The notes beneath the pieces were generated by a model. That model was not told the DNA's origin, did no database searches, and saw only the letters and a list, made by a program, of their open reading frames with translations. A program made the position numbers and the translations under genes. From Escherichia coli (GTDB taxonomy: Bacteria; Pseudomonadota; Gammaproteobacteria; Enterobacterales; Enterobacteriaceae), in the NCBI RefSeq assembly GCF_011045215.1, contig NZ_CP049201.1: a stretch of 64,000 nt of DNA, one strand, 5' to 3'. Positions 5,100-11,432 of the stretch are shown in pieces (positions within the stretch are counted from its first letter, which is position 1; the number at the start of each line of letters is the position of its first letter).

Positions 5100-5974
5100 C
5101 CAAGACGTTACTGGACGGCCCCGGTCGCGTGCTGGAGTCGGTTTATCCCCGCTTTTTAGTGGATCTGGCGCAGGGCGATGATGCCCGCCTTCCACAAGCC
5201 CATCAGCAGCAGTTTCGTGAACGACTGATGCAGGAACTTCTTGCGCGCGTGCAGCTTCAGACATGGACGAACGGCGGCATGTTAAATGCGCCGCTTAGCC
5301 TGCGTCTGACATTGGTGGAAAAACTGGCGTCGATGCTGGATCCCGGTCATCTGGCACTGACGCAGATCGCGCAGCATCTGGCGCTGCTGCAAAAAATGGA
5401 TTACCGCCAGCACTCTGCTTTCCCGGAGCTCCCCCAGCAAATTGCCGCCTTGTATGAGTGGTTTTCAGCCCGTTGTCGCTGGAAGGAAAAGGCGTTAACG
5501 CAACGAGGCCTACTGGTGCAGGCGGGTGAACAGAGCGAGCAAATTTTTACCCGCTGGCGTGCTGGGGCGTATAACGCCTGGTCGTTACCTGGGCGCTGTT
5601 TTATCGTTCTCGAAGAGTTGCGTTGGGGGGCATTTGGCGATGCCTGTCGTCTGGGAAGCCCGCAAGCGGTGGCGTTGTTGCTGGGTGATTTGCGCGTGAA
5701 AGCGACACAACATCTGGCAGAGAGTATCAATGCGGCCCCGACCACGCGTCACTATTACCATCAGTGGTTTGCCTCTTCGACCGTTCCGACGGGCGGGGAT
5801 CATGCTGATTTTTTAAGTTGGCTGGGAAAGTGGACCACGGCAGATAAACAACCCGTTTGCTGGTCAGTGACCCAACGCTGGCAAACTGTCGCGCTGGGGA
5901 TGCCACGACTCTGTTCAGCGCAGCGTCTGGCGGGGGCAATGCTCGAGGAAATCTTCTCTGTAAATTTGGTGTAA
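5096..5974 (+). CDS. yjcZ: YjcZ, conserved protein co-transcribed with crfC
   Basis: 292-aa ORF overlapping the crfC stop by 4 nt; recognised YjcZ sequence. Confidence 0.88.
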   Translation: MTKTLLDGPGRVLESVYPRFLVDLAQGDDARLPQAHQQQFRERLMQELLARVQLQTWTNGGMLNAPLSLRLTLVEKLASMLDPGHLALTQIAQHLALLQKMDYRQHSAFPELPQQIAALYEWFSARCRWKEKALTQRGLLVQAGEQSEQIFTRWRAGAYNAWSLPGRCFIVLEELRWGAFGDACRLGSPQAVALLLGDLRVKATQHLAESINAAPTTRHYYHQWFASSTVPTGGDHADFLSWLGKWTTADKQPVCWSVTQRWQTVALGMPRLCSAQRLAGAMLEEIFSVNLV

Positions 5975-6237: not shown

Positions 6238-7740
6238 ATGCTGAAAAGGAAAAAAGTAAAACCGATTACCCTTCGTGATGTCACCATTATTGATGACGGT
6301 AAACTGCGTAAAGCCATTACCGCAGCATCACTGGGTAATGCAATGGAATGGTTTGATTTTGGTGTTTATGGTTTTGTTGCTTACGCATTAGGTAAAGTTT
6401 TTTTCCCGGGGGCTGACCCCAGCGTGCAGATGGTTGCTGCACTTGCCACTTTCTCCGTTCCCTTTCTGATTCGACCGCTTGGCGGACTCTTCTTTGGTAT
6501 GTTGGGCGATAAATATGGTCGCCAGAAGATCCTCGCTATCACTATTGTGATTATGTCGATCAGTACGTTCTGTATTGGCTTAATACCGTCCTACGACACG
6601 ATTGGTATTTGGGCACCGATTCTGCTGTTGATCTGTAAGATGGCACAAGGTTTCTCGGTCGGCGGTGAATATACCGGGGCGTCGATATTTGTTGCGGAAT
6701 ACTCCCCTGACCGTAAACGTGGCTTTATGGGCAGCTGGCTGGACTTCGGTTCTATTGCCGGGTTTGTGCTGGGTGCGGGCGTGGTGGTGTTAATTTCGAC
6801 CATTGTCGGCGAAGCGAACTTCCTCGACTGGGGCTGGCGTATTCCGTTCTTTATTGCTCTGCCGTTAGGGATTATCGGGCTTTACCTGCGCCATGCGCTG
6901 GAAGAAACTCCGGCGTTCCAGCAGCATGTTGATAAACTGGAACAGGGCGACCGCGAAGGTTTGCAGGATGGCCCGAAAGTCTCGTTTAAAGAGATTGCCA
7001 CTAAATACTGGCGCAGCCTGTTGACATGTATTGGTCTGGTAATTGCCACCAACGTGACTTACTACATGTTGCTGACCTATATGCCGAGTTATTTGTCGCA
7101 TAACCTGCATTACTCCGAAGACCACGGGGTGCTGATTATTATCGCCATTATGATCGGTATGCTGTTTGTCCAGCCGGTGATGGGCTTGCTGAGTGACCGT
7201 TTTGGCCGTCGTCCGTTTGTGCTACTTGGTAGTGTTGCACTGTTTGTGTTGGCGATCCCGGCGTTTATTCTGATTAACAGTAACGTCATCGGCCTGATTT
7301 TTGCCGGGTTACTGATGCTGGCGGTGATCCTTAACTGCTTTACGGGCGTTATGGCTTCTACCTTGCCAGCGATGTTCCCGACGCATATCCGTTACAGCGC
7401 GCTGGCGGCGGCATTTAATATTTCGGTGTTGGTTGCCGGTCTGACGCCAACACTGGCGGCCTGGCTGGTCGAAAGCTCGCAGAATCTGATGATGCCAGCC
7501 TATTACCTGATGGTAGTGGCGGTGGTTGGTTTAATCACCGGCGTAACCATGAAAGAGACGGCAAATCGTCCGTTGAAAGGTGCAACACCGGCGGCGTCAG
7601 ATATACAGGAAGCGAAGGAAATTCTCGTCGAGCATTACGATAATATCGAGCAGAAAATCGATGATATTGACCACGAGATTGCCGATTTGCAGGCGAAACG
7701 TACCCGCCTGGTGCAGCAACATCCGCGAATTGATGAATAA
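6238..7740 (+). CDS. proP: Proline/glycine-betaine:H+ symporter ProP (MFS osmosensor)
   Basis: 500-aa protein starting MLKRKKVKPITLRDV at ATG 6238; C-terminal coiled-coil HEIADLQAKRTRLVQQHPRIDE. Confidence 0.95.
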   Translation: MLKRKKVKPITLRDVTIIDDGKLRKAITAASLGNAMEWFDFGVYGFVAYALGKVFFPGADPSVQMVAALATFSVPFLIRPLGGLFFGMLGDKYGRQKILAITIVIMSISTFCIGLIPSYDTIGIWAPILLLICKMAQGFSVGGEYTGASIFVAEYSPDRKRGFMGSWLDFGSIAGFVLGAGVVVLISTIVGEANFLDWGWRIPFFIALPLGIIGLYLRHALEETPAFQQHVDKLEQGDREGLQDGPKVSFKEIATKYWRSLLTCIGLVIATNVTYYMLLTYMPSYLSHNLHYSEDHGVLIIIAIMIGMLFVQPVMGLLSDRFGRRPFVLLGSVALFVLAIPAFILINSNVIGLIFAGLLMLAVILNCFTGVMASTLPAMFPTHIRYSALAAAFNISVLVAGLTPTLAAWLVESSQNLMMPAYYLMVVAVVGLITGVTMKETANRPLKGATPAASDIQEAKEILVEHYDNIEQKIDDIDHEIADLQAKRTRLVQQHPRIDE

Positions 7741-7854
7741 GCTGAAACGGATGGCCTGATGTGACGCTGTCTTATCAGACCAACAATTGAACTCTTAAGG
7801 TTCACTTAATCTCTGCCGCGCATACTCTGCTCCAGGTTAACGGAGGAGAGTGCA

Positions 7855-7944
7855 ATGAAAAACCGTGTTTATGAAAGTTTAACTACCGTGTTCAGCGTGC
7901 TGGTGGTCAGCAGCTTTCTTTATATCTGGTTTGCCACGTACTGA
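7855..7944 (+). CDS. pmrR: Small membrane protein PmrR (29 aa)
   Basis: ATG at 7855 preceded by ggaggagag; encodes MKNRVYESLTTVFSVLVVSSFLYIWFATY; its 3' end overlaps the convergent basS 3' end; below the length cut-off of the ORF track. Confidence 0.85.
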   Translation: MKNRVYESLTTVFSVLVVSSFLYIWFATY

Positions 7945-9011
7945 TCTTTCTTCAGCCGTATCCAGGCGCGCGTGCCAGAAGTCTCTTGCCGGTTTTGCAG
8001 GAAAAACTGCCCGTGATGCAACTGTGTAATGCGGCTGACAATACTTAACCCCAGACCAATCCCGCCATAACGGCTGTCCATACGTACAAACGCTTTACTC
8101 AACTCCCCGCATTTACTCTCATCAATACCCGGTCCTTCATCTTCAACGGCCATGACGGCTCCGCCATCTTCTTGCAGCTTAATCATAATGTTGCTGCCTT
8201 GCGGGCTGTAACGATGGGCATTTTCTACCAGATTTCGCAATAACATCCGCAGCAGGGTTGCATCACCCTGAACGGTGATGTCGGCGGCGCTCTCTGGCAA
8301 TAGCAGGGTTTGCTGGCGCTGGTCGAGCATAGTACTGAGTTCGTCATACGAGGGGAGAATGACATCTTCCAGCAGTTTTACATGTTGATAATTACCGGAA
8401 GAAAATGACTGTCCGGCACGCGCCAGTTGCAGCAGCTGGGAGACGCTCTCCATCATCTGATCAAGCCGTGCCACTAACGGTGCTACATCAATGTGATGCG
8501 TTTTCGCCAGCAGTTCCAGATGCAAACGCACCCCCGCCAGTGGCGTTCGCAGTTCGTGCGCGACGTCAGCGGTAAATAACCTTTCGTTATCCAGCGTGCT
8601 GGTCAGGCGACTGACCAGATCGTTCAACGCCGAAACCACCGCTTCGATTTCGAGGGTGGCGCTGTGAATGGCAATGGGCGTTAAGTTGTCGGCGGTGCGC
8701 GCTTCCAGCTCTTTTTGCAGCTCCGCCAGCGGGCGGGTGATGCGGCGTACCGCCTGATAGCAGATAAATAGCGTCAGGCTGACCATAAAGACGCCGGGGA
8801 CAATCAGGCTGGCGACCGCCTCGCGGATCTCACGCATGATGTGGCGATCGTTGTTGCGATTGTCGCGTAGCGCCTGCTCAAACAGCTGAATCTGCTCGGT
8901 ACTTTCATGCCATAGCCAGAAGACGCTGATCAGCTCAAACACCAACAAAATGGCCCCGATGGTCAATATCAGCCGTTGGCGCAGCGATATTGGTCGGCGC
9001 AGAAAACGCAT
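7920..9011 (-). CDS. basS: Sensor histidine kinase BasS (PmrB)
   Basis: Recognised BasS sequence with H-box HELRTPL and ATPase G-boxes; start set at MRFLRR (363 aa), upstream ATG at 9020 is an alternative. Confidence 0.93.
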   Translation of the reverse strand: MRFLRRPISLRQRLILTIGAILLVFELISVFWLWHESTEQIQLFEQALRDNRNNDRHIMREIREAVASLIVPGVFMVSLTLFICYQAVRRITRPLAELQKELEARTADNLTPIAIHSATLEIEAVVSALNDLVSRLTSTLDNERLFTADVAHELRTPLAGVRLHLELLAKTHHIDVAPLVARLDQMMESVSQLLQLARAGQSFSSGNYQHVKLLEDVILPSYDELSTMLDQRQQTLLLPESAADITVQGDATLLRMLLRNLVENAHRYSPQGSNIMIKLQEDGGAVMAVEDEGPGIDESKCGELSKAFVRMDSRYGGIGLGLSIVSRITQLHHGQFFLQNRQETSGTRAWIRLKKDQYVANQI

Positions 9012-9020
9012 CAGATTCAA

Positions 9021-9689
9021 TTAGTTTTCCTCATTCGCGACAAGCATATAGCCAAAGCCGCGCACGGTGCGGATACGGGCTTTGCCCACTTTGTCGCGCA
9101 GATTGTGGATATGCACTTCCAGGGTGTTGGTCGAGGGTTCATTGTCCCAGTTATAGATGTCGTTGTAGAGAATTTCCCGATGCACCGGACTGCCTGCTTT
9201 GAGCATTAACCGTGACAGCAGAGCATATTCTTTGGGCGTCAGAATCAACTCTTCACCGCCCATCCATACCTGACGGCGACCCATGTTCAGCGTCAGATTG
9301 CCAACAATCAGCTCACTTTCGCCCTGATTATTATGGCGTCGTAGCAGGGCGCGGATACGGGCGTGTAACTCTTCCAGTGCAAAAGGCTTCACCAGATAGT
9401 CATCGGCACCGACATCCAGCCCGGCGATTTTGTCAGTCAGCGTATCGCGAGCGGTGAGGATCAGTACCGGCAGGGTATATTTTTTCTGCCGGATACGGGC
9501 GAGAAAATGCAGTCCATCTTCGTCGGGTAACCCTAAATCCAGTACCACCAGGCTGTAATGACCTGCCTCAAGGCTTTGTTCCGCCATCCGCGCGGTTGTC
9601 ACGCCATCGCACGCGTAGCCTTCGGTTTGCGCCGCCAGAATCAGTCCCTGCAATAACAGCGTATCGTCTTCAACAATCAGAATTTTCAT
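9021..9689 (-). CDS. basR: Response regulator BasR (PmrA), OmpR family
   Basis: 222-aa [19 protein letters not shown]... with receiver and winged-helix domains. Confidence 0.95.
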
Positions 9690-11329
9690 TCACTCACTCT
9701 CCTGCAAGTTTGCAGAATATCATCCGCAGCCTGGTAATACTTCGTCTCAACGCCAGTTAATCCCAATAGCGTGGAGAATAAATTGTCTTGTGAATAGTGT
9801 TGCGTTTGCGCCTGTTTTTGCAGACAGTTCTGGTCAACCTGATACCGTTTTTGATAATCCTCCGACAGCCACAGCAGCATCGGCACCTGTTTTTGGCTAT
9901 CCGGGGCGATGGCATAAGGCAGACCGTGCAGATAGATGCCATTTTCACCTAACGATTCACCGTGGTCAGAAAGATAAACCAGGCTGGTGGTAAATTTATC
10001 CTGATGTTCTTTCAGCAGATTAATCGCTTTATCAACAATATAGTCGACGTAAACCAGCGTGTTGTCGTAAGTGTTCACCAGTTGCTCTTTGGTACAGGTC
10101 TGGATCTCATTGGTGTCGCAGGTTGGGGTAAATTTCCTGAACTGCGGCGGATAGCGGTTGTAATAGGTCGGACCGTGGCTGCCGATGGTGTGTAAGACAA
10201 TCACGCCATCACCCTGCAGGTTATTGATGTACTCTTCCAGCCCGTGGAACAGCACTTCGTCATAGCATTCGCCGTTGATGCACTGATCAGGCAGATTCAG
10301 CGCGGTGACATTCTGGTGAGGCACGCGGTCGCAGGCACCTTTACAGCCGCCATCGTTGTCATTCCACAGCACGTTGATGCCCGCTCGCTGAATGATATCC
10401 AGCACGCCTTCCTGGTGCTGTGCCAGCTCTTCTTTGTAGTGCTCTCGCGGCATATCCGAGAACATGCACGGTACTGAAACTGCCGTTGCCGTGCCGCAAG
10501 ATGCGGTATTAGGGAAATAGACCACGTTATCTTTCGCCAGCCGCGGGTTAGTTTCACGCGGGTAGCCGTTGAGGGAGAAGTTCTCCGCCCGCGAGGTTTC
10601 GCCGACAATCAGGATGGTCAAATTTTTACGTTTTTCGTTCTGCATTAACGGGTTGCGGTGCGCGTCTTCACCAATTCGCACCAGCGGCAGATTTGCCAGT
10701 CGCTGATGGGAGTACCATGACCAGCTGGCAACAATGCTGTTAGAGGGGCTTAAGGACTTCACCAGCTCTTTGTTGTTGCGGAACAACGAGGCGTAGTCTT
10801 TATAAAATAGTGCGGCGACCAGCAAAATCAGCAGTACAGAAACCAGAATATTGGCTCCACGGAAAAGAACACTGCGCAGACGCGAGGTGGCAGGTTTGAT
10901 TTTAATCCAGCAGGCAATCAGCGCAGCAAGCACGCCGCTGAATCCCAGCGTTAATAACATTTGCGGTGTCATCAGCGCATAGCTTTCTGCCGGAGTGGTA
11001 TCAATAATATTGGCAATCATCGAGCGGTCGATGACGATGCCGTAAGTCATTATGAAATATTGTGCAGCCGCGCCAACCAGAATAAACAGGCAGGCCAGCG
11101 GTCGATTAAGCCATAAGAAAGAGCTTAGTGTCAGGACAATATTAATCACGCTGAAGGCGACGACCGGCATCGACAAGAAAACCAGTACGTTATGCAGCGA
11201 GTCCAGCGGCAGCGCCTGCAACACCTGTTTAAAAAAGGCAATATTCAGGCAGATAGAGATATAAAAAGCGGCCAACAATAGCCAGGCGAGTAAATTCAAA
11301 GAGGGTCTTTTTAGTAGGCGCTTCAACAT
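9686..11329 (-). CDS. eptA: Lipid A phosphoethanolamine transferase EptA (PmrC)
   Basis: Track ORF 9686-11374; start trimmed to [18 protein letters not shown] (547 aa); overlaps basR start, operon eptA-basRS. Confidence 0.93.
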
Positions 11330-11432
11330 CACGGTGTTTCCATCGAACAAAGTGCGCATATGCTCGCAAAGCAAAATTAAGCCAACCTTAAGTTCTTAAG
11401 GTTGGCTTTTATCTTTGCTGGATTAAGGGGAA

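What the first reader, a model, noticed from the sequence alone, without database searches (positions are those of the whole stretch)
7855..7944. pmrR small ORF convergently overlapping the 3' end of basS
The 29-aa membrane peptide gene overlaps the basS 3' end on the opposite strand (7920-7944). This is a known arrangement and is recorded because it falls below the ORF-track size cut-off.
Basis: established knowledge. Interest (0 to 1): 0.2.

Follow-up and report, generated by a model that had tools for sequence, protein, structure and literature searches.

The report
pmrR small membrane peptide gene
This is the already well-known E. coli gene pmrR, a 29-residue membrane peptide switched on by the PmrA/BasR regulator to block the lipid A kinase LpxT; it is intact here, and the only mildly new point is a conserved RNA hairpin that hides its ribosome-binding site in transcripts coming from upstream.

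Summary
Observation confirmed and interpretation supported. Window 7855-7944 (+) is a 29-codon ORF, base-for-base identical to MG1655 pmrR (b4703). It scores 74.2 bits against NCBIfam PmrR (cut-off 30). The same stretch is annotated pmrR in 5408 of 5426 complete E. coli genomes. It overlaps the basS/pmrB 3' end by exactly 25 nt (7920-7944).

A perfect PmrA box, CTTAAGGTTCACTTAAT, lies at 7794-7810, 61 nt before the ATG. It is followed by a -10-like CATACT and a GGAGGAG Shine-Dalgarno sequence.

In 55 of 80 pmrB loci from other genera, the same box, spacing and a 28-33 codon (mostly 29-30) hydrophobic ORF recur. The CDS overlap with pmrB varies from -8 to +57 nt, so the overlap itself is not the conserved feature.

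Beyond the finding, the Shine-Dalgarno sequence is the 3' arm of a covarying hairpin (7824-7851). Its 5' arm lies upstream of the inferred PmrA-dependent start site. A published plus-strand RNA 3' end maps 5-6 nt after it. Rfam already models this region as 'sRNA STnc630'. I propose the hairpin insulates pmrR from read-through; this is untested.

The window carries a private C7829G change that weakens this stem.

Verdict: known gene, low interest.

The parts
7752..7782 (+). REP-like hairpin just after the proP stop (7738-7740). It differs from MG1655 by one G>A change and a 3-nt insertion at 7781-7783.
   Evidence: Alignment; fold. Xu et al. box a predicted Rho-independent terminator in this intergenic region; which stem-loop they boxed was not checked here.
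7794..7810 (+). PmrA (BasR) box CTTAAGGTTCACTTAAT: two YTTAAK half-sites separated by 5 nt. It starts 61 nt before the pmrR ATG.
   Evidence: 0 mismatches, 2 hits in the window against 0.10 expected. The box is conserved at 57-63 nt before the ATG in most of the 55 loci with the module (54-63 as the script called starts). Deleting this box in E. coli abolishes PmrR function (PMC8129183).
7821..7826 (+). Inferred -10 hexamer CATACT, exactly 10 nt after the box. It implies a PmrA-dependent transcription start at about 7833-7834.
   Evidence: In the A3 alignment, gAnACT has a fixed 10-nt spacing from the box in 50 of 51 sequences, with A at position 2 and T at position 6 nearly invariant. The eptA promoter has the same geometry. 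The start site is inferred, not mapped.
7824..7851 (+). Conserved covarying hairpin. The 5' arm is 7824-7833 (ACTCTGCTCC), the loop is 7834-7841, and the 3' arm is 7842-7851 (GGAGGAGAGT, which contains the Shine-Dalgarno sequence). The window has a private G at 7829, giving a G.G mismatch.
   Evidence: The hairpin is included in the consensus structure of Rfam RF02052.
7842..7848 (+). Shine-Dalgarno sequence GGAGGAG, 6 nt before the ATG.
   Evidence: Sequence; GAGG is nearly invariant in A3.
7855..7944 (+). pmrR coding sequence: 29 codons plus TGA. It encodes a single-pass membrane peptide with a charged N-terminus (MKNRVYES) and a hydrophobic core from L9 to F26.
7920..7944 (.). 25-nt antiparallel overlap between pmrR codons 22(last base)-29 plus stop and the last 7.3 codons plus stop of basS. 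Third codon positions coincide.
7920..9020 (-). basS/pmrB sensor kinase. The TTG start is the PGAP call; the K-12 ATG start is at 9011.
7945..8044 (+). Probable pmrR 3' UTR, antisense to basS. The end point is transferred from the mapped MG1655 3' terminus 4332305.
   Evidence: Supplementary data of PMC10687069. A long imperfect stem spans 7952-8038 (z=-1.5, not significant).
11376..11392 (-). Second PmrA box, CTTAAGGTTGGCTTAAT, in the eptA-basRS promoter. It belongs to the same regulon and has the same box, 10-nt spacer and -10 geometry.

Best explanation
The ORF is pmrR, a real and intact gene for a 29-residue inner-membrane peptide. When BasS/PmrB senses Fe3+ or mild acid (or receives PhoPQ input through PmrD), phosphorylated BasR/PmrA binds the box at 7794-7810. 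This box takes the place of a -35 element. Transcription is then activated from the weak -10 CATACT, starting at about 7834 (inferred). The short leader carries a free, strong Shine-Dalgarno sequence, and the peptide inserts into the inner membrane. There it binds and inhibits LpxT, the enzyme that turns lipid A 1-phosphate into 1-diphosphate. This leaves position 1 free for phosphoethanolamine addition by EptA, which is encoded by the convergent PmrA-activated operon. The surface charge drops and polymyxin resistance rises, at the cost of deoxycholate resistance. These functional steps are taken from published work on the identical K-12 sequence and on Salmonella; they were not shown here.

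In such RNA the Shine-Dalgarno sequence is locked in a 10-bp hairpin whose 5' arm lies upstream of the PmrA-dependent start site. If so, only PmrA-initiated transcripts would be translated, and upstream transcripts would end at the hairpin.
For: Identity. The CDS is 90/90 nt identical to b4703. NF033224 PmrR scores 74.2 bits against a cut-off of 30. The stretch is annotated pmrR in 5408 of 5426 E. coli genomes.

Regulation. A perfect PmrA box is present, and the only other one in the 64 kb lies before eptA. Box-to-ATG spacing is conserved at 57-63 nt in most of 55 loci from about 20 genera.

Coding. ORF length is 29-30 aa in 54 of 56 sequences after correcting GTG starts called one or two codons too early (range 28-33). 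M1, F21 and W25 are invariant. Codon-position variability is 0.51/0.28/0.63.

Function, from the literature. Deleting the PmrA box of pmrR makes a PmrA-constitutive E. coli polymyxin-sensitive and deoxycholate-resistant, and lpxT deletion reverses this (PMC8129183). Ribo-RET start-site reads rise 5-fold in low Mg2+, PmrR-6xHis fractionates with membranes, and an ATG>TAA mutant fails to complement (PMC11429745).

Hairpin. 88% of cells are paired, against 40-53% when the partner is slid. Pair 18-39 shows CG17/AU16/GC6/GU6. The covariation score is 0.269 against 0.05-0.11 in controls, and 0 of 500 shuffles reach it. RNAalifold finds the hairpin independently. The MG1655 fold is -22.7 kcal/mol, z=-3.3, while RNA starting at 7834 is unstructured at -2.4. 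Mapped plus-strand 3' termini at MG1655 4332112-4332126 lie 5-6 nt after the stem.
Against: Nothing argues against the gene identity.

On function, part of the E. coli phenotype is LpxT-independent: the growth defects of deletion and overexpression persist in a delta-lpxT strain (PMC11429745). LpxT inhibition may therefore not be the only role.

On the hairpin inference, the transcription start is inferred from promoter geometry only; I found no mapped start. The stem is symmetric, so it also forms in the antisense basS 3' UTR. Strand preference is modest: the sense strand is more stable in 33 of 51 sequences, and core-helix G.U to A.C counts are 33:9. In Klebsiella a canonical uvrB terminator precedes the box, so read-through there should already be low.
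Confidence: 0.97

Rival explanations
1. The region is a non-coding small RNA (Rfam STnc630), and the ORF is incidental.
For: Rfam RF02052 'Enterobacterial sRNA STnc630' matches 7786-7951 (+) at 169 bits against a gathering score of 55.
Against: The Rfam model spans the PmrA box, the Shine-Dalgarno sequence and the whole ORF, so it simply covers the pmrR gene. Translation is shown by Ribo-RET, and the phenotype depends on the start codon (PMC11429745). The ORF and its hydrophobic pattern survive to about 25% identity in genera where the Rfam model no longer matches. Codon-position variability is that of a coding sequence. A dual role is not excluded.
Confidence: 0.05
2. The main purpose of the convergent arrangement is antisense control. 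pmrR transcription running about 125 nt into basS, and eptA-basRS transcription running across pmrR, would interfere with each other or create RNase III substrates (an 'excludon'). This would give feedback on BasS levels that does not depend on the peptide.
For: The pair is listed as a convergent excludon from RNA-seq coverage (PMC12288877). A mapped plus-strand 3' end lies 100 nt past the pmrR stop, inside basS. The length of the pmrB 3' downstream region changes pmrB mRNA level about 315-fold in BL21 constructs (PMC8004244).
Against: Both promoters are PmrA-activated, which is the opposite of the mutually exclusive logic of excludons. The CDS overlap is not conserved (-8 to +57 nt). The phenotypes are complemented by the peptide in trans and lost with ATG>TAA. 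This may be an extra layer, but it is not the primary function.
Confidence: 0.15
3. The conserved hairpin acts on the other strand, as a 3' stabiliser or terminator of eptA-basRS mRNA, and not on pmrR translation.
For: The inverted repeat folds on the minus strand too: -20.3 kcal/mol, z=-2.8 in MG1655. The terminal pair has 17 A.C cells, which would be G.U on the minus strand. Xu et al. saw loss of pmrB mRNA and colistin resistance when the construct ended at +86, which is 7834, inside the loop. Partial rescue came at +103, which is 7817 and includes the whole stem.
Against: In the core helix, G.U pairs outnumber A.C pairs 33 to 9 on the plus strand. An alifold consensus appears only on the plus strand: -4.1 against 0. 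The mapped 3' end is on the plus strand. No U-tract follows the stem on the minus strand. The same truncation points also remove the pmrR promoter step by step, so the Xu data do not discriminate. Half-life was unchanged.
Confidence: 0.25
4. It is a chance small ORF in the proP-basS spacer.
For: Dozens of ORFs of this size occur by chance.
Against: See and the experimental literature.
Confidence: 0.01

Closest known systems
PmrR of E. coli K-12 (b4703) and Salmonella enterica (Kato et al. 2012, Mol Cell 47:897, cited; not readable here)
   Same: The nucleotide and protein sequences are identical to b4703. The position convergent to pmrB, the PmrA box, and the single hydrophobic helix are all the same.
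   Different: The coding sequence does not differ at all. The window differs from MG1655 only outside it: C at 7816, a private G at 7829 in the leader or promoter, and an altered REP-like hairpin upstream.
Rfam RF02052 STnc630 ('Enterobacterial sRNA')
   Same: It matches full-length, positions 1-166 of 166, at 169 bits. The Rfam consensus structure contains the same stem that sequesters the Shine-Dalgarno sequence.
   Different: Rfam files it as an sRNA gene. Here it is the promoter, leader and CDS of a translated peptide gene. The Rfam model reaches only Escherichia and Citrobacter amalonaticus among 20 loci tested, whereas the box, hairpin and ORF module extends to Klebsiella, Raoultella, Kluyvera, Kosakonia and others.
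Other small membrane-protein regulators of two-component circuits (MgrB, MgtS, SafA, PmrD)
   Same: These are short peptides, mostly single-pass membrane proteins. They are induced by a two-component system and act by binding a larger membrane protein (PMC11429745).
   Different: PmrR targets a lipid A-modifying enzyme (LpxT), not a kinase or a transporter. There is no sequence similarity and no Pfam family.
Fold-back inhibition of read-through translation in IS10/Tn10 (Davis, Simons and Kleckner 1985, pmid 2416461, cited in PMC2965389; mechanism recalled from established knowledge)
   Same: An inverted repeat pairs with the ribosome-binding site. The element's own promoter appears to start between the arms, so only foreign transcripts fold.
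   Different: This is a chromosomal regulon gene, not a transposase. The start-site position is inferred only. The hairpin also coincides with a mapped 3' end of upstream RNA.

Membership tests
PmrR (NCBIfam NF033224, LpxT activity modulator) | Sequence match above the curated cut-off | tested here: met
   74.2 bits against a cut-off of 30, positions 1-29 of 29. The sequence is identical to b4703 and WP_000797657.1.
PmrR (NCBIfam NF033224, LpxT activity modulator) | About 29-30 aa with one hydrophobic membrane helix | tested here: met
   29 aa; the best 15-residue Kyte-Doolittle mean is 2.18. Membrane fractionation of the identical peptide is reported in PMC11429745.
PmrR (NCBIfam NF033224, LpxT activity modulator) | Located downstream of pmrCAB and convergent to pmrB | tested here: met
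   The gene order is eptA-basR-basS on the minus strand and pmrR on the plus strand. The same synteny holds in 55 loci.
PmrR (NCBIfam NF033224, LpxT activity modulator) | PmrA box in the promoter | tested here: met
   CTTAAGGTTCACTTAAT at 7794-7810 with 0 mismatches.
PmrR (NCBIfam NF033224, LpxT activity modulator) | PmrA-dependent transcription | not testable with these tools
   Published genetics on the identical K-12 promoter only (PMC8129183).
PmrR (NCBIfam NF033224, LpxT activity modulator) | Binds and inhibits LpxT | not testable with these tools
   Literature only. Some E. coli phenotypes are LpxT-independent.
Rfam RF02052 STnc630 | Covariance-model score at or above the gathering threshold | tested here: met
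   169.3 bits against 55.
Rfam RF02052 STnc630 | Acts as a non-coding regulatory RNA | not testable with these tools
   No paper in the library mentions STnc630. The coding evidence argues for an mRNA.
Convergent excludon | Overlapping convergent transcripts | tested here: inconclusive
   The CDS overlap of 25 nt is shown. The transcript overlap of about 125 nt is inferred by transferring a published MG1655 3' end. The pair is listed in PMC12288877.
Convergent excludon | Mutually exclusive expression of the two genes | tested here: not met
   Both promoters carry PmrA boxes in activating geometry, so co-induction is expected. No expression data were computed here.
IS10-type fold-back protection from read-through | An inverted repeat sequesters the ribosome-binding site | tested here: met
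IS10-type fold-back protection from read-through | The gene's own promoter starts between the arms | tested here: inconclusive
   Inferred from the box, 10-nt spacer and -10 geometry, plus a conserved A 7-8 nt after the -10. No mapped start was found.
IS10-type fold-back protection from read-through | Read-through transcripts exist and are not translated | not testable with these tools
   Existence is supported by the mapped 3' end at the stem and by the SEnd-seq remark. Translation status is unknown.

The most novel reading that the evidence does not exclude
The pmrR promoter is nested inside an RNA hairpin. The 5' arm (7824-7833) is the last three bases of the -10 plus the discriminator, and the 3' arm is the Shine-Dalgarno sequence. 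Transcripts entering from the co-oriented upstream gene (proP, or uvrB in other genera) would fold, end at the stem and stay untranslatable. PmrA-initiated transcripts would start between the arms and be fully open. This would be a conserved, covarying insulation device for a peptide whose overexpression impairs growth, extending well beyond the taxa covered by Rfam STnc630. The window's private C7829G change would partly disable it.
Probability: 0.4. Interest if true: 0.4.

Novelty: already known. Interest (0 to 1): 0.15.

Why it matters
The finding itself matters only for annotation completeness: a functional regulon member falls below the ORF size cut-off. pmrR links the BasRS/PmrAB system to the choice between diphosphate and phosphoethanolamine at lipid A position 1. 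That choice trades polymyxin resistance against bile-salt resistance (PMC8129183). The side result may interest people working on small proteins and on colistin resistance. It offers a concrete sequence-level reading of why 103-126 bp downstream of pmrB were needed in the BL21 study (PMC8004244), because those end points coincide with the pmrR -10 and PmrA box. It also suggests a testable way in which a small membrane peptide that impairs growth when overexpressed could be shielded from read-through expression.

Tried and rejected
1. The terminator-like hairpin inside the CDS (7898-7912) was considered as the site where proP transcripts stop. I rejected it because no mapped 3' end lies there and the fold is no better than shuffles (z=+1.05).

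2. I looked for a mapped pmrR transcription start. Kato 2012 and Hong 2018 are not held. The Cappable-seq and SMRT-Cappable-seq supplements have no entry near 43320xx-43321xx. The start therefore remains inferred.

3. Pfam has no family for the peptide.

4. An 'STnc630' literature search found nothing.

5. I considered a tiny minus-strand ORF after the mirrored Shine-Dalgarno sequence (ATG at 7822, 5 codons). I dismissed it because the ATG is not conserved outside Escherichia.

6. The 100% identity of pmrR to MG1655, against 98.7-99.3% for its neighbours, is not significant for 90 nt and is not used as evidence of constraint.

7. The proximal CTTAAT half-site acting as a -10 was rejected, because PmrA binding there would repress, contrary to the genetics.

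Full report
**Observation**

The window has an ATG-initiated ORF at 7855-7944 on the plus strand. It encodes MKNRVYESLTTVFSVLVVSSFLYIWFATY, 29 aa. On the minus strand, basS/pmrB runs from 9020 to 7920, and its TAA stop is the complement of 7920-7922. Reading the coordinates directly, pmrR codon 23 is 7921-7923 and the last sense codon of basS is 7925-7923. The third codon positions of the two genes thus coincide throughout the overlap, which is the antiparallel phase that constrains both genes least.

The surrounding gene order is rdcA/rdcB, proP, pmrR on the plus strand, then basS, basR, eptA on the minus strand. This is the order in E. coli K-12.

**Is it more than chance?**

A 29-codon ORF alone is not evidence: 91 ORFs of 20 aa or more overlap a 6-kb stretch here. 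The evidence that it is real comes from several directions.

- The 90-nt CDS is identical to MG1655 pmrR b4703.
- The peptide scores 74.2 bits against the NCBIfam equivalog model NF033224 'LpxT activity modulator PmrR', whose cut-off is 30.
- The 260-nt stretch around it is present in 5408 of 5426 complete E. coli genomes, where it is annotated pmrR overlapping pmrB (annotation tables).
- A strong Shine-Dalgarno sequence, GGAGGAG (7842-7848), lies 6 nt before the ATG.

**The PmrA box**

The suggested check is positive. The pattern YTTAAK-N5-YTTAAK occurs twice in the 64-kb window, against 0.10 expected. One copy is CTTAAGGTTCACTTAAT at 7794-7810 (+), 61 nt before the pmrR ATG. The other is CTTAAGGTTGGCTTAAT at 11376-11392 (-), 63 nt before the eptA ATG at 11329.

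Both boxes are followed after exactly 10 nt by a weak -10-like hexamer with A at position 2 and T at position 6: CATACT at 7821-7826, and GAGCAT before eptA. This is the geometry expected of an OmpR/PhoB-family activator that replaces the -35 element (established knowledge). It puts the PmrA-dependent start at about 7833-7834. That start is an inference; I could not find a mapped one.

**Related loci**

A scan of one genome per species with BasS as query returned 80 loci. In 55 of them I found the same module convergent to pmrB. All 55 have PmrB at 61% identity or more, and they span Escherichia, Citrobacter, Klebsiella, Raoultella, Kluyvera, Kosakonia, Phytobacter, Pseudocitrobacter, Trabulsiella, Yokenella, Pluralibacter and others.

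The module consists of a PmrA box with at most one mismatch, an ATG (once a GTG) 57-63 nt downstream in most loci (54-63 as the script called starts), and an ORF of 28-33 aa. After correcting GTG starts that the script called one or two codons too early, 54 of 56 sequences (the 55 loci plus the window) are 29 or 30 aa.

Protein identity to the E. coli peptide falls to 17-45% for the genera outside Escherichia and Citrobacter amalonaticus. M1, F21 and W25 are nevertheless invariant, a small residue precedes F21, and the hydrophobic core is kept. 15 of 28 representatives still hit NF033224. Nucleotide variability by codon position is 0.51/0.28/0.63, the signature of a translated hydrophobic peptide.

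Eight further Enterobacteriaceae-like loci (PmrB at 61% identity or more) and all 17 more distant loci lack the module next to pmrB. The distant group comprises Pectobacterium, Rahnella, Rouxiella, Ewingella, Chimaeribacter, Edaphovirga, Serratia sp. and two unclassified Enterobacterales.

The CDS overlap with pmrB ranges from -8 to +57 nt. In E. coli it falls on the C-terminal tail of BasS, which no longer aligns in other genera: the tblastn matches end at residues 344-365, mostly 354-358. The module has also moved. Its upstream, co-oriented neighbour is proP in Escherichia and C. amalonaticus, but uvrB in Klebsiella and Trabulsiella, and a co-oriented ORF of the same size (about 675-715 aa) in most other genera.

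**What it does (from the literature; not tested here)**

In E. coli, deleting only the PmrA box of pmrR in a PmrA-constitutive strain causes polymyxin B sensitivity and restores deoxycholate resistance. Deleting lpxT reverses this, and arnT induction is unaffected (PMC8129183). This fits the Salmonella model (Kato et al. 2012, cited): PmrR binds and inhibits LpxT, so lipid A position 1 stays available for EptA.

Ribo-RET shows a 5-fold rise in initiation at the pmrR start codon in low Mg2+. PmrR-6xHis fractionates with membranes. The deletion phenotype is complemented by the peptide but not by an ATG>TAA allele. Both deletion and overexpression cause growth defects that persist without LpxT, which hints at a second partner (PMC11429745).

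**A structure not in the finding**

Aligning the promoter and leader of the 55 loci shows that the Shine-Dalgarno sequence is the 3' arm (7842-7851, GGAGGAGAGT) of an inverted repeat. Its 5' arm (7824-7833) begins inside the -10 hexamer and ends where the inferred start site lies.

- Across 51 distinct sequences, 88% of cells are standard pairs, against 40-53% when the partner is slid by 1-3 columns.
- Pair 18-39 is CG in 17, AU in 16, GC in 6 and GU in 6. Pair 19-38 is UA in 36, CG in 6 and UG in 6.
- The covariation score is 0.269 against 0.05-0.11 for slid controls, and no shuffle out of 500 reaches it.
- RNAalifold predicts the same helix unaided.
- The MG1655 version folds at -22.7 kcal/mol (z=-3.3). 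RNA beginning at 7834 is essentially unstructured at -2.4 kcal/mol (z=+1.1).

The stem is symmetric, so it also forms in the antisense basS 3' UTR (-20.3 kcal/mol). The plus strand is nevertheless modestly favoured. Core-helix G.U against A.C counts are 33:9. The sense strand is more stable in 33 of 51 sequences, and an alifold consensus appears on the sense strand only.

Independent experimental data fit the plus strand. Published 3'-end maps of MG1655 place plus-strand termini at 4332112-4332126, with peaks at 4332117/8. That is 5-6 nt after the stem and on the pmrR start codon. A second terminus lies at 4332305, which is window 8044, 100 nt past the pmrR stop. The authors note that SEnd-seq shows the upstream gene terminating inside pmrR (PMC10687069).

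My reading, at probability about 0.4, is as follows. Transcripts arriving from the upstream gene fold, end at the stem and cannot be translated. PmrA-initiated transcripts start between the arms and are open. The closest precedent is fold-back protection of IS10 transposase from external promoters (pmid 2416461, cited).

Some points argue for caution. In K. pneumoniae a canonical uvrB terminator already abuts the box, whereas in Trabulsiella there is none. The start site is not mapped. The antisense role cannot be excluded.

**How new is the hairpin?**

It is not wholly new. Rfam RF02052 'Enterobacterial sRNA STnc630' matches 7786-7951 (+) at 169 bits, and its consensus structure includes this stem. 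In effect Rfam catalogues the pmrR gene as an sRNA. The model reaches only the Escherichia and C. amalonaticus loci among 20 tested, so most of the covariation reported here lies outside it.

Xu et al. predicted stem-loops on the pmrB strand and truncated at their borders. Converting their coordinates, with +n equal to 7920-n:
- +86 is 7834, the inferred start site, so no promoter is included. The MIC was unchanged.
- +103 is 7817, which includes the -10 and the whole stem but no box. The MIC was 4.
- +126 is 7794, the first base of the PmrA box. The MIC was 16.

[quoted passage not shown] This is an inference. It does not explain why the chromosomal pmrR of the host did not suffice, nor their difference in pmrB mRNA level.

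**A private variant**

The window has G at 7829 where the stem needs C. This gives a G.G mismatch in the middle of the helix and drops the 70-nt fold from -22.7 to -15.9 kcal/mol. A 30-nt exact-word search finds this allele in 0 of 5426 genomes. The two control queries with C find 5358 and 5360. It may be a real strain-specific change or a sequencing error, and its effect is unknown.

**Verdict**

The gene is already known and experimentally characterised, so interest in the finding as given is low. The nested-promoter hairpin is a modest, testable addition.

Noticed in passing
window 7829: There is a private C>G change in the centre of the conserved stem that sequesters the Shine-Dalgarno sequence; the site is also in the discriminator of the pmrR promoter. 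The allele is absent from all 5426 complete E. coli genomes, while 5358-5360 carry C. It weakens the predicted fold by about 7 kcal/mol.
   Followed up: partly
window 7786-7951 (+): Rfam RF02052 'sRNA STnc630' is in fact the pmrR promoter, leader and coding sequence (169 bits). The family annotation as a non-coding sRNA looks outdated.
   Followed up: partly
window 11376-11392 (-): A second perfect PmrA box lies before eptA, with the same box, 10-nt spacer and -10 geometry. A further TTAAG half-site sits just upstream, at 11396-11400.
   Followed up: partly
window 7752-7782: The REP-like hairpin after proP differs from MG1655 by G>A in the stem and a 3-nt insertion at 7781-7783. Only 26 of 5409 records are 99% or more identical over 7741-8000.
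   Followed up: no
window 7898-7912 (+): A terminator-like hairpin with a T-run lies inside the pmrR CDS. No mapped 3' end lies there and the fold is no better than shuffles, so it is probably chance.
   Followed up: yes
L023 3703-3721 (-), L021 3690-3750 (-): In Klebsiella and Trabulsiella (and, judging by a co-oriented ORF of the same size, most other genera) the pmrCAB-pmrR module lies after uvrB, not proP. K. pneumoniae has a canonical uvrB terminator whose T-tail runs into the PmrA box. Trabulsiella has only 24 nt between the uvrB stop and the box, and no terminator.
   Followed up: partly
window 7920-9689 (-): BasS carries H2R, D283G and V351I, and BasR carries S29G, relative to MG1655. 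EptA is identical at the protein level. BasS differs from strain XH990 by one residue (T242A).
   Followed up: no
window 7794, 7817, 7834: The truncation end points +126, +103 and +86 of the BL21 'pmrB 3' downstream region' study (PMC8004244) fall on the first base of the PmrA box, 4 nt upstream of the -10, and the inferred pmrR start site. This suggests that study was dissecting the pmrR promoter or hairpin.
   Followed up: partly
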